From assembly GCF_003334815.1 (NCBI RefSeq), contig NZ_QOWO01000068.1: a DNA stretch of 6,595 nucleotides. One strand, 5' to 3'. A program made the position numbers and the translations under genes. This stretch comes from Escherichia coli. GTDB lineage: Bacteria > Pseudomonadota > Gammaproteobacteria > Enterobacterales > Enterobacteriaceae. This document shows, piece by piece, positions 77-340 of this stretch. Numbering within the stretch: the stretch's first letter is position 1; the number at the start of each line of letters is the position of its first letter. The notes beneath the pieces are model-generated. The model did not search any database and was not told the origin of the DNA. It was given only the letters and a program-made list of their open reading frames with translations.

Positions 77-224
77 TAATTGAGCATTTCCAGGCGCTTG
101 CGCCTGGTCAACGAAAGAGTCAGCGCCGTAGGCGCTGCCATTTTTGGGGTGAGGCCGTTCGCGGCCGAGGGGCGCAGCCCCTGGGGGGATGGGAGGCCCG
201 CGTTAGCGGGCCGGGAGGGTTCGA

Positions 225-245
225 GAAGGGGGGGCACCCCCCTTC
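225..245. repeat. Perfect hairpin palindrome in the oriV GC-rich region (9-bp stem GAAGGGGGG / CCCCCCTTC, 3-nt loop)
   Basis: Read directly: GAAGGGGGG gca CCCCCCTTC. Confidence 0.6.
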
Positions 246-248
246 GGC

Positions 249-266
249 GTGCGCGGTCACGCGCAC
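249..266. repeat. Second GC-rich hairpin palindrome in oriV (7-bp stem GTGCGCG / CGCGCAC, 4-nt loop)
   Basis: Read directly: GTGCGCG gtca CGCGCAC. Confidence 0.55.
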
Positions 267-279
267 AGGGCGCAGCCCT

Positions 280-340
280 GGTTAAAAACAAGGTTTATAA
301 ATATTGGTTTAAAAGCAGGTTAAAAGACAGGTTAGCGGTG
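280..340. other. oriV AT-rich region (probable DNA unwinding element) with phased GGTT-AAAA repeats
   Basis: Local AT-rich island in an otherwise GC-rich window. GGTT motifs start at 280, 292, 306, 318 and 330 (spacing 12-14 bp), each followed by an A/T run. Confidence 0.7.

What the first reader, a model, noticed from the sequence alone, without database searches (positions are those of the whole stretch)
221..340. GC-rich hairpins next to an AT-rich block of phased GGTT-AAAA repeats
Two perfect palindromes (225-245 and 249-266) sit just upstream of a locally AT-rich block where GGTT followed by an A/T run recurs five times at 12-14 bp spacing (280, 292, 306, 318, 330). This looks like the DNA unwinding element and adjacent GC-rich region of oriV. 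The phased repeats are candidate 13-mer-like helicase loading sites.
Basis: partly seen in the sequence, partly recalled or inferred. Interest (0 to 1): 0.2.

Follow-up and report, generated by a model that had tools for sequence, protein, structure and literature searches.

The report
Orphan RK2-type oriV DNA-unwinding element
This stretch is an exact copy of the well-studied DNA-unwinding element (four "13-mers") and GC-rich flank of the RK2/IncP-1α plasmid replication origin, stranded without its initiator gene inside a Tn21–Tn1721 resistance region of an E. coli plasmid, so it is real and correctly read but already known.

Summary
GGTT sits at 280, 292, 306, 318 and 330, and two strong GC hairpins sit at 225-245 and 249-266. 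Two small corrections: the hairpins are perfect stems with 3-4 nt loops, not full palindromes, and only the first four GGTTs are followed by an A/T run.

The published RK2 "DUEoriV top" 70-mer is the exact reverse complement of window 272-341. Window 77-1026 is 100% identical to the IncP-1α plasmid R702. The four mapped 13-mers (L, M1, M2, R) fall at 285-334 on the minus strand, followed by nine iterons and DnaA-box-like sites.

Block 283-334 is the least stable 52-mer in the window. It is the dominant stress-opened (SIDD) site in 3.6-6.6 kb domains, but not in a 20-kb native context.

The window is pO111-CRL115 nt 28017-34611, where a 2013 paper already describes this oriV between Tn21 and ΔTn1721. 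No trfA is present (confirmed by tblastn), so the origin is an orphan and probably silent unless TrfA is supplied in trans.

Across 11 TrfA-type origins, hairpin 1, the GGTT phasing and the distance to the iterons are conserved. Palindrome 2 is lineage-specific.

Novelty: already known. Interest: low.

The parts
39..76 (-). 38-bp terminal inverted repeat of Tn21 next to merR (IRmer). Left boundary of the IncP-1α segment; context only.
   Evidence: merR ends at window 43. IncP-1α identity starts at 77. PMC3817090 describes IRmer21 abutting the oriV segment.
77..1026 (.). IncP-1α backbone segment carrying the complete oriV (GC-rich region, DUE, nine iterons, DnaA boxes).
   Evidence: 950/950 identical to R702, L003:8873-9822. 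Described as identical to pBS228 oriV in PMC3817090.
212..604 (.). Equivalent of the classical 393-bp HpaII minimal oriV fragment.
   Evidence: HpaII (CCGG) sites at 211 and 604, 393 bp apart. That the minimal oriV is a 393-bp HpaII fragment is from my own knowledge of the RK2 literature, not retrieved here.
145..277 (.). G+C-rich region flanking the DUE (78% GC over 145-266). Contains five consecutive GC hairpins.
   Evidence: Composition. Fold of 145-270 gives -43.3 kcal/mol, z = -4.7. Among the most stable 1.3% of 122-bp windows.
153..166 (.). GC hairpin a (GGCCG-ttcg-CGGCC). Lies outside the minimal oriV.
   Evidence: Fold. A hairpin at this place is retained with altered sequence in other IncP-1 origins, e.g. 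GACCGC-tt-GCGGTC.
168..182 (.). GC hairpin b (GGGGC-gca-GCCCC core).
   Evidence: Fold. Stems invariant and loop variable across 10 origins.
195..212 (.). GC hairpin c (GGCCCGC-gtta-GCGGGCC).
   Evidence: Fold. Homologous GGCCGC-tt-GCGGCC and GAGCCGC-tt-GCGGCTC in other origins.
225..245 (.). Hairpin 1 of the finding: 9-bp G/C-rich stem with a 3-nt loop. Family-wide conserved element of TrfA-type origins.
   Evidence: Stems invariant in 11 origins with variable loops GCA/TTT/TCT/TT/CA. IS186-type insertion target in pWEC911.
249..266 (.). Hairpin 2 of the finding: 7-bp stem with a 4-nt loop. Specific to IncP-1α.
   Evidence: Lies in an indel-variable spacer. Other small hairpins occupy this place in pCFSA664-2 and the ZJ623 plasmid. 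It is absent in the P. bubulae plasmid. Other subgroups, e.g. pKJK5 (ε), have a 57-61 nt T-run spacer instead.
272..341 (-). Exact match to the published 70-nt RK2 'DUEoriV top' strand. The window + strand is the A-rich 'bottom' strand that TrfA binds as ssDNA.
   Evidence: Block 283-334 on the + strand is A24 T15 G10 C3. TrfA binds the bottom/A-rich strand (PMC4081077, PMC4980987).
280..283 (+). Fifth GGTT, outside the four 13-mers. Core of a degenerate fifth unit at the GC-rich border.
   Evidence: CTGGTTAAAA is conserved in most IncP-1 origins.
285..297 (-). 13-mer R (TAAACCTTGTTTT).
   Evidence: 0 mismatches to TAAACnTTnTTTT.
299..311 (-). 13-mer M2 (TAAACCAATATTT).
   Evidence: 3 mismatches to the consensus. 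The exact register differs by 1-3 nt from a contiguous 4x13 partition (283-334).
311..323 (-). 13-mer M1 (TTAACCTGCTTTT).
   Evidence: 2 mismatches.
322..334 (-). 13-mer L (TAACCTGTCTTTT).
   Evidence: 2 mismatches. The swap oligonucleotides in PMC4081077 Table S1 replace exactly this 13-mer by its complement.
395..499 (+). Cluster of five TrfA iterons (cores at 395-408, 418-431, 440-453, 463-476, 486-499).
   Evidence: CCCCTCANNTGTCA gives 9 hits against 0.01 expected. Repeat families D1-D3. Matches the published iteron oligo except for one indel and one mismatch in a spacer.
514..548 (.). DnaA-box-like sites: TTATCCCCA 514-522 (+), TTGTCCACA 526-534 (+), TTTCCCACA 540-548 (-). Further ones at 386-394 (-) and 716-724 (+).
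   Evidence: As a motif count these do not exceed chance (9 against 7.3 expected). Their assignment rests on identity to RK2 oriV and on PMC3817090.
623..692 (+). Cluster of three further iterons (623-636, 658-671, 679-692).
955..968 (+). Ninth, isolated iteron.
   Evidence: PMC3817090 reports nine iterons.

Best explanation
Window 221-340 is the G+C-rich flank and the DNA-unwinding element (four 13-mers: L, M1, M2, R) of an IncP-1α (RK2/RP4/R702-type) vegetative origin, oriV.

How it works in a working replicon (established for RK2; not shown here):
1. TrfA monomers bind the five iterons (395-499). DnaA binds its boxes beyond them (about 514-548).
2. The complex melts the adjacent, intrinsically least stable 13-mer block (283-334).
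3. TrfA then binds the A-rich strand, which is the window + strand. This binding needs all four 13-mers.
4. In E. coli, DnaB-DnaC is first held at the DnaA boxes and then moved onto the opened DUE. In Pseudomonas, TrfA-44 loads the helicase itself.
5. TrfA recruits the beta-clamp, so a replisome is built on one strand and replication is unidirectional.

The GC-rich hairpin region next to the DUE most likely acts as a very stable boundary that confines the bubble to the 13-mers. This step is inferred, not shown.

In this particular DNA, the origin is an orphan. It sits between Tn21 and ΔTn1721 on an IncK2/Z-type E. coli plasmid that encodes no TrfA. It is therefore expected to be silent unless TrfA is supplied in trans.
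For: - Identity. The published RK2 DUE 70-mer equals the reverse complement of window 272-341, and primers oriV1/oriV2 map at 737-757 and 323-344. Window 77-1026 is 100% identical to R702.
- 13-mers. All four consensus hits lie at 285-334 on one strand. There are 11 hits in the window at 3 or fewer mismatches against 3.5 expected, and 0 of 200 shuffles reach that.
- Neighbours. Nine iterons, DnaA-box-like sites, and HpaII sites 393 bp apart.
- Physical property in small domains. The least stable 52-mer of the window starts at 283. Exact SIDD gives mean p(open) of 0.81 at sigma -0.055, with nothing else above 0.05. This is robust to parameter changes. Replacing the block moves opening to 1959-2032.
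- Physical property in native IncP-1 contexts. The same block is the dominant SIDD site in R702 and in a Delftia IncP plasmid.
- Conservation. In 11 TrfA-type origins the GGTT units (3-8 detected, spacing mostly 10-14) persist. So do the 64-66 nt distance to the first iteron (57 in one) and hairpin 1.
- Mechanism. PMC4081077 and PMC4980987.
- Orphan status. The window is pO111-CRL115 nt 28017-34611, and tblastn with six TrfA queries finds nothing better than E = 0.25 on the whole plasmid. Positive controls reach E <= 1e-67. PMC3817090 states that trfA is absent. Typing is IncK2/Z and IncQ1.
Against: - Nothing contradicts the identification.
- Limit 1: in a 20-kb native context of pO111-CRL115 the DUE is not the stress-opened site (p about 0). 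Longer AT-rich tracts at window-equivalent 9540-9660 and 10560-10785 win. 47 regions of the plasmid are less stable. Passive SIDD therefore supports 'DUE-like' only in small or GC-rich domains.
- Limit 2: the DnaA boxes are not statistically distinguishable from chance as a motif count.
- Limit 3: the role assigned to the hairpins is inference. Hairpin 1 stems are invariant, so there is no covariation to show that a folded structure is selected rather than the sequence.
- Limit 4: in pWEC911, which is typed as an IncP replicon, an IS186-type element splits hairpin 1 about 40 bp from 13-mer R. This argues against an indispensable role for an intact hairpin 1.
Confidence: 0.95

Rival explanations
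1. The origin is actively used: this oriV fires in its present plasmid and contributes to its replication.
For: - The complete minimal oriV is intact and identical to that of a working IncP-1α plasmid.
- An orphan oriV on heterologous plasmids does fire when TrfA is provided in trans, for example in EPI300 or with pRL443 (bioRxiv 10.1101/2025.10.16.682956).
Against: - There is no TrfA homologue on pO111-CRL115 (PMC3817090).
- The replicons typed are IncK2/Z and IncQ1.
- The sister plasmid pO26-CRL125 has lost 160 bp of this oriV (two iterons, two DnaA boxes, the IHF site) without consequence.
Confidence: 0.03
2. The two GC hairpins are transcription terminators or part of a structured RNA, not origin DNA elements.
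For: They are strong hairpins (z about -5). A terminator-like hairpin with a T-run exists nearby at 121-137.
Against: - No T-run follows 225-245 or 249-266, and the terminator scan does not call them.
- No Rfam family matches 1-1100, even at E <= 1.
- In native IncP-1 plasmids the neighbouring klcA is transcribed away from oriV.
- Both hairpins lie inside the 393-bp minimal oriV.
Confidence: 0.03
3. The GC hairpins have a specific sequence- or structure-dependent role in initiation, beyond being a passive GC clamp. Examples would be a protein binding site, an extruded cruciform, or a fork or helicase barrier that enforces unidirectional replication.
For: - Hairpin 1 stems are invariant across 11 origins whose flanks are only about 70% identical, while its loop varies freely.
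- A second small hairpin of unrelated sequence recurs at the same place in three lineages.
- Three more hairpins upstream are retained, with changes on both arms (GGCCGC/GCGGCC to GACCGC/GCGGTC or GAGCCGC/GCGGCTC).
Against: - There is no covariation in hairpin 1 itself.
- Palindrome 2 is absent in one lineage and replaced by a long spacer in others.
- pWEC911 tolerates a 1.3-kb IS inside hairpin 1.
- No literature on a defined function could be retrieved.
Confidence: 0.25
4. The AT-rich GGTT array is a chance low-complexity patch or a promoter/UP-like element with no origin function.
For: AT-rich stretches are common near promoters. The second SIDD site in the window (1957-2032) is the tetR/tetA promoter region.
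Against: - It is exactly identical to the experimentally characterised RK2 DUE.
- No sigma-70-like promoter is found in 1-1100.
- The motif counts exceed shuffles.
- The array is conserved at a fixed distance from the iterons in distant TrfA replicons.
Confidence: 0.01

Closest known systems
RK2/RP4/R702/pBS228 (IncP-1α) oriV: DUE with 13-mers L, M1, M2, R plus the G+C-rich region
   Same: Identical sequence. The 70-nt DUE oligo matches 100%, and 950 bp match R702 at 100%. The order is the same: GC-rich region, 13-mers, five iterons, DnaA boxes, three iterons, one iteron.
   Different: The location differs. This copy is not on an IncP-1 replicon. It lies between Tn21 IRmer and ΔTn1721 on an IncK2/Z-type plasmid without trfA.
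Tn21 - IncP-1α oriV - ΔTn1721 complex resistance locus of pO111-CRL115 / pO26-CRL125 (Venturini et al. 2013, PMC3817090)
   Same: The window is nt 28017-34611 of pO111-CRL115. The paper already annotates the G/C-rich region, A/T-rich region, nine iterons, DnaA boxes and IHF site, and notes that trfA is absent.
   Different: Nothing of substance. The paper called the arrangement unique in 2013. It now occurs at 100% identity in many E. coli, Salmonella, Shigella and Klebsiella plasmids.
oriV of other IncP-1 subgroups (e.g. pKJK5, IncP-1ε) and more distant TrfA replicons
   Same: Homologous at about 71-74% identity. They share hairpin 1, phased GGTT units, the terminal GGTTAG and the 64-66 nt distance to the first iteron.
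   Different: The number of GGTT units detected ranges from 3 to 8. The spacer between hairpin 1 and the DUE is 9-86 nt. The α-specific palindrome 249-266 is missing.
E. coli oriC DUE (three 13-mers, GATCTnTTnnTTT) and F oriS 8-mers
   Same: The logic is the same: an AT-rich repeat block next to initiator binding sites, opened by the initiator. One strand is bound by the initiator, and it is the site of DnaB loading (PMC4081077, PMC4980987).
   Different: The consensus differs. TrfA (winged-helix Rep, no AAA+ domain) binds the A-rich strand, whereas DnaA binds the T-rich strand. RK2 has four 13-mers, and replication is unidirectional.

Membership tests
IncP-1 (RK2-type) oriV DNA-unwinding element | Four 13-mers matching TAAACnTTnTTTT, on one strand, in tandem | tested here: met
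   Hits at 285-297 (0 mismatches), 299-311 (3), 311-323 (2) and 322-334 (2), all on the minus strand. Identical to the published RK2 DUE oligo.
IncP-1 (RK2-type) oriV DNA-unwinding element | Placed next to the five-iteron cluster at a fixed distance, with DnaA boxes on the far side of the iterons | tested here: met
   Iterons at 395-499. The distance from the last GGTT to the first iteron is 65 nt here and 64-66 nt in 10 of 11 related origins. DnaA-box-like sites at 514-548. These are weak as a statistic, but the sequence is identical to RK2-type oriV.
IncP-1 (RK2-type) oriV DNA-unwinding element | Flanked on the other side by a G+C-rich region | tested here: met
   145-266 is 78% GC and falls in the most stable 1.3% of windows. 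The largest stability step in the window is at 277.
IncP-1 (RK2-type) oriV DNA-unwinding element | Intrinsically easily unwound (helical instability, SIDD site) | tested here: inconclusive
   Met in 3.6-6.6 kb domains: p(open) 0.65-0.86 and the dominant site. It is also the least stable 52-mer of the window. Not met in a 20-kb native plasmid context, where longer AT tracts win (p about 0).
IncP-1 (RK2-type) oriV DNA-unwinding element | TrfA-dependent strand opening and TrfA binding to the A-rich single strand | not testable with these tools
   Shown experimentally for the identical RK2 sequence (PMC4081077). Inferred here from 100% identity.
Functional IncP-1 replicon (oriV + trfA) | Cognate trfA encoded on the same plasmid | tested here: not met
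   tblastn with six TrfA sequences against the whole of pO111-CRL115, the window and L001 gives a best E of 0.25. Positive controls reach <= 1e-67. PMC3817090 says trfA is absent.
Functional IncP-1 replicon (oriV + trfA) | Complete minimal oriV (393-bp HpaII fragment) | tested here: met
   HpaII sites at 211 and 604. The fragment is 100% identical to R702.

The most novel reading that the evidence does not exclude
Two readings go beyond the textbook and are not excluded by my evidence.

1. The orphan oriV is not inert. It sits at 100% identity in several hundred enterobacterial resistance plasmids. When an IncP-1α plasmid enters the same cell, its TrfA could fire this origin or be titrated or handcuffed by its nine iterons. 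That would change the copy number of the resistance plasmid or act as an incompatibility barrier against IncP-1α plasmids.

2. The conserved array of GC hairpins next to the DUE, especially the invariant G6-loop-C6 hairpin 1, could have a specific and still undefined role in initiation or in making replication unidirectional.
Probability: 0.2. Interest if true: 0.35.

Novelty: already known. Interest (0 to 1): 0.08.

Why it matters
As a discovery it matters little. The RK2 oriV DUE is one of the best-characterised plasmid unwinding elements, and this very locus was annotated in 2013.

It is a useful positive control for the scan, because a reader working from raw sequence identified a DUE and its repeats correctly.

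Two practical points follow:
- Annotation pipelines leave this origin unmarked. The records under the match list 'none' or only merR. Replicon typing by rep genes misses it.
- An intact, trans-activatable broad-host-range origin is embedded in widespread multiresistance plasmids. This could matter for plasmid-plasmid interactions when IncP-1α plasmids are co-resident.

Tried and rejected
- My first SIDD approximation (up to three open runs, overlaps ignored) gave probabilities above 1 at high stress. I discarded it and replaced it with an exact n-resolved forward/backward calculation.
- Direct retrieval of RK2 (BN000925) and pTB11 (NC_006352) failed because neither is in the collections. I used R702 and pWEC911 instead.
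- A contiguous 4x13 partition of 283-334 fits the published consensus poorly for M1, M2 and R (6-7 of 13). I replaced it with the consensus-scan register.
- A covariation test on the hairpins was not pursued. Hairpin 1 stems are invariant, and the MAFFT alignment puts hairpins a and c out of structural register. I used per-sequence folds instead.
- SIDD on related loci shorter than 2.8 kb is under-powered (p 0.0-0.26) and is not used as evidence either way.
- Classic papers could not be read: Smith & Thomas 1985 (NAR 13:557) and Wawrzycka 2015 (PMC4534257).
- The Rfam scan and the promoter scan found nothing in 1-1100. The terminator scan found only the 121-137 hairpin.

Full report
**1. Observation**

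- 225-245 is GAAGGGGGG-GCA-CCCCCCTTC, a perfect 9-bp stem with a 3-nt loop.
- 249-266 is GTGCGCG-GTCA-CGCGCAC, a perfect 7-bp stem with a 4-nt loop.
- Both are perfect inverted repeats with short loops rather than perfect palindromes.
- As single-stranded DNA, 221-270 folds into exactly these two hairpins at -20.3 kcal/mol. Shuffles give -10.25 +/- 2 (z = -5.0, 0 of 200 as good).
- GGTT occurs at 280, 292, 306, 318 and 330, spaced 12, 14, 12 and 12. The first four are followed by at least four A/T bases, and the fifth by AGCGG.
- GGTTWWWW occurs five times in the window, four of them here, against 0.7 expected. TRF finds a 12-14 bp array at 282-333.
- The 52-mers starting at 282 and 283 are the most AT-rich in the window (25% GC against 62.8% overall).

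**2. What it is**

The surroundings show nine copies of CCCCTCANNTGTCA against 0.01 expected (repeat families). These are the TrfA iterons of an IncP-1 oriV.

- Wegrzyn et al. 2014 (PMC4081077) describe four 13-mers (L, M1, M2, R; consensus TAAACnTTnTTTT) in the RK2 DUE.
- Their Table S1 gives the 70-nt 'ssDNA DUEoriV top' oligonucleotide. It is the exact reverse complement of window 272-341.
- Their primers oriV1 and oriV2 map at 737-757 (minus strand) and 323-344 (plus strand).
- The consensus scan places R at 285-297 (0 mismatches), M2 at 299-311 (3), M1 at 311-323 (2) and L at 322-334 (2), all on the minus strand.
- So there are four 13-mers. The GGTT at 280 is the core of a degenerate fifth unit on the GC-rich border.
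- Window 77-1026 is 950/950 identical to the IncP-1α plasmid R702.
- HpaII sites at 211 and 604 delimit a 393-bp fragment. From my own knowledge of the RK2 literature, this corresponds to the classical minimal oriV. It includes both hairpins of the finding, the 13-mers, five iterons and the DnaA-box-like sites at 514-548.

**3.

I wrote an exact Benham-type SIDD calculation: copolymeric energetics, with n-resolved forward and backward partition functions.

- On the 6.6-kb window taken as one domain, 278-335 is the only site with p(open) above 0.05 at sigma -0.05 and -0.055. Mean p over 283-334 is 0.62 and 0.81 respectively.
- It stays at 0.75-0.86 up to sigma -0.07, where a second site (1949-2032, the tetR/tetA promoter region) also opens.
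- The hairpin region has p of about 1e-6.
- Replacing 283-334 with ordinary sequence moves the opening to 1959-2032.
- The result is insensitive to C, a, A and the base-pair energies.
- Independently of any domain assumption, the least stable 52-mer of the window by nearest-neighbour energy starts at exactly 283. The largest GC-to-AT stability step is at 277.

There is an important limit. In a 20-kb native context of the host plasmid, longer AT-rich backbone tracts take all the stress-driven opening and the DUE stays closed. In the whole plasmid, 47 regions are less stable, though the DUE is still in the least stable 1.1%.

In native IncP-1 contexts (R702, 6.6 kb; a Delftia IncP plasmid, 6.4 kb) the block is again the dominant site. 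Opening at oriV is driven by TrfA, so SIDD is supporting evidence, not proof.

**4. Where the window comes from**

- The whole window is 100% identical to many enterobacterial plasmids. It is nt 28017-34611 of pO111-CRL115 (NC_022992.1).
- The order is: Tn21 merR and IRmer (to 76), IncP-1α oriV (77-1026), then ΔTn1721 with tetR(A), tet(A), pecM/EamA and a truncated tnpA.
- Venturini et al. 2013 (PMC3817090) describe exactly this. Their account has a Tn21 derivative linked to ΔTn1721 through a region identical to the pBS228 oriV. That region has a G/C-rich part, an A/T-rich part, nine iterons, DnaA boxes and an IHF site.
- They state that trfA is absent and that the origin is not expected to function.
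- I confirmed this. Six TrfA queries find nothing on the whole plasmid (best E = 0.25), while positive controls reach 1e-67 or better. The replicons typed are IncK2/Z and IncQ1.

**5. Mechanism (shown for RK2; inferred here from identity)**

- TrfA monomers on the iterons, helped by DnaA or HU, melt the 13-mer block.
- Point mutations or a changed register of the 13-mers abolish opening.
- TrfA binds only the bottom, A-rich strand, and needs all four 13-mers. Here that is the window + strand (A24 T15 G10 C3 over 283-334).
- In E. coli, DnaB-DnaC is first positioned at the DnaA boxes and then translocated to the melted DUE, with an efficiency that depends on the DUE sequence. In Pseudomonas, TrfA-44 loads the helicase itself.
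- TrfA bound to the bottom strand recruits the beta-clamp for strand-specific replisome assembly (PMC4081077 and PMC4980987).
- 'Helicase loading sites' is therefore a fair but partial description.
- An orphan oriV on heterologous plasmids is known to fire when TrfA is supplied in trans, and this can affect plasmid compatibility (bioRxiv 10.1101/2025.10.16.682956).

**6. Comparative anatomy (added here)**

I compared eleven TrfA-type origins. They are α, pKJK5 (ε), further plasmids typed as IncP, and three more distant plasmids that carry trfA next to the origin.

- *Conserved features:* hairpin 1, with invariant stems and a free loop (GCA, TTT, TCT, TT, CA), and a run of GGTT units spaced mostly 10-14 bp that ends in GGTTAG. 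The detected number of units is 3-8. The 3 in pKJK5 is an undercount caused by one AGTT variant. The distance from the last GGTT to the first iteron is 64-66 nt, with 57 in one case.
- *Palindrome 2 (249-266) is not conserved.* It is α-specific. In pCFSA664-2 and the ZJ623 plasmid, unrelated small hairpins sit in its place (GGCGTC-tat-GACGCC and GCGTC-gtta-GACGC). It is missing in a P. bubulae plasmid. Other subgroups have a 57-61 nt T-run-containing spacer instead.
- *Hairpin array:* three further GC hairpins upstream (153-166, 168-182, 195-212) are also retained, some with changes on both arms.
- *Interpretation:* I read the array as a stable boundary to the bubble. This is inference. Hairpin 1 shows conservation but no covariation, and pWEC911 (typed IncP) carries an IS186-type element inside hairpin 1. 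An intact hairpin 1 is therefore probably not essential.

**7. Rivals**

- *Use as an active origin here* is very unlikely. There is no TrfA, and the sister plasmid pO26-CRL125 has lost 160 bp of this oriV.
- *Terminator or RNA readings of the hairpins* are not supported. No T-run follows them, the scan does not call them and there is no Rfam match. In native plasmids klcA is transcribed away from oriV.
- *A chance AT-rich patch* is excluded by identity to the characterised DUE.

**8. Verdict**

- four 13-mers, not five;
- stem-loops, not strict palindromes;
- the mapped 13-mers are written on the opposite strand;
- this copy is an orphan origin.

The feature is already known, both as the RK2 DUE and as this specific locus. 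Interest is low. The only open ends are whether orphan copies interact with incoming IncP-1α plasmids and what the conserved hairpin array does.

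Noticed in passing
L002 (pWEC911, JX469833) 4664-6000; target = window 229-240: In this IncP plasmid a 1337-bp IS186-type element (terminal repeats ATAAGCGCTAACTTAAGGGTTG, annotated InsL) is inserted inside oriV hairpin 1. It has a 12-bp target duplication, GGGGGGCACCCC. The G6-N3-C6 palindrome is thus an IS186-style hot-spot. The insertion sits only about 40 bp from 13-mer R, in a plasmid still typed as IncP.
   Followed up: partly
window 153-166, 168-182, 195-212: Three more GC-rich hairpins lie upstream of the two in the finding, outside the 393-bp minimal oriV. They are retained across IncP-1 subgroups, some with changes on both arms (GGCCGC/GCGGCC to GACCGC/GCGGTC or GAGCCGC/GCGGCTC). 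The motif GGGGGGATGGGAG between them is invariant. I could not find a described function.
   Followed up: partly
window 90-107 and 121-137: There is a perfect 18-bp palindrome, CCAGGCGCTTGCGCCTGG. Next to it is a terminator-like hairpin with T-runs on both strands (CAGCGCC-gta-GGCGCTG, then CCATTTTTGG). Both are also present in pEMT3 (L012 881-935). They may form a bidirectional terminator insulating oriV from the klcA side.
   Followed up: no
window 1949-2032: This is the second most easily unwound site of the window in the SIDD calculation (29% GC). It coincides with the divergent tetR(A)/tet(A) promoter-operator region.
   Followed up: no
window 4656-6476: The 606-aa ORF is about 80% identical at DNA level to the TnAs3/Tn21-family tnpA of R702, so it is the truncated Tn1721 tnpA. 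Some database records label genes in this stretch 'relaxase'. The small ORF at 1046-1288 is variously labelled 'transposase' or 'relaxase/helicase'. These look like inconsistent annotations.
   Followed up: partly
window 77-1026, in PLSDB: The minimal oriV (205-610) is present at >= 99% identity in 352 plasmid records, and matches overall are mostly from E. coli and Salmonella. Features under the match are usually 'none'. Orphan copies of the IncP-1α origin may outnumber genuine IncP-1α replicons in the database. The 2013 paper called the Tn21-oriV-ΔTn1721 arrangement unique.
   Followed up: partly
pO111-CRL115 nt ~37,550-37,680 and ~38,575-38,800 (window-equivalent 9540-9660, 10560-10785): Long AT-rich tracts in the backbone near the parA/impB-type genes absorb all predicted stress-driven opening in a 20-kb domain and out-compete the oriV DUE.
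   Followed up: no
PMC4081077 Table S1, compared with window 272-341 and 380-510: As held in the text copy, the printed 'bottom' DUE oligo is not the exact complement of the 'top' oligo (GCAGGTAAAAAG against GCAGGTTAAAAG). The printed iteron oligo differs from the window by one indel and one mismatch in an inter-iteron spacer. These are probably typographical or PDF-conversion errors rather than real sequence variants.
   Followed up: no
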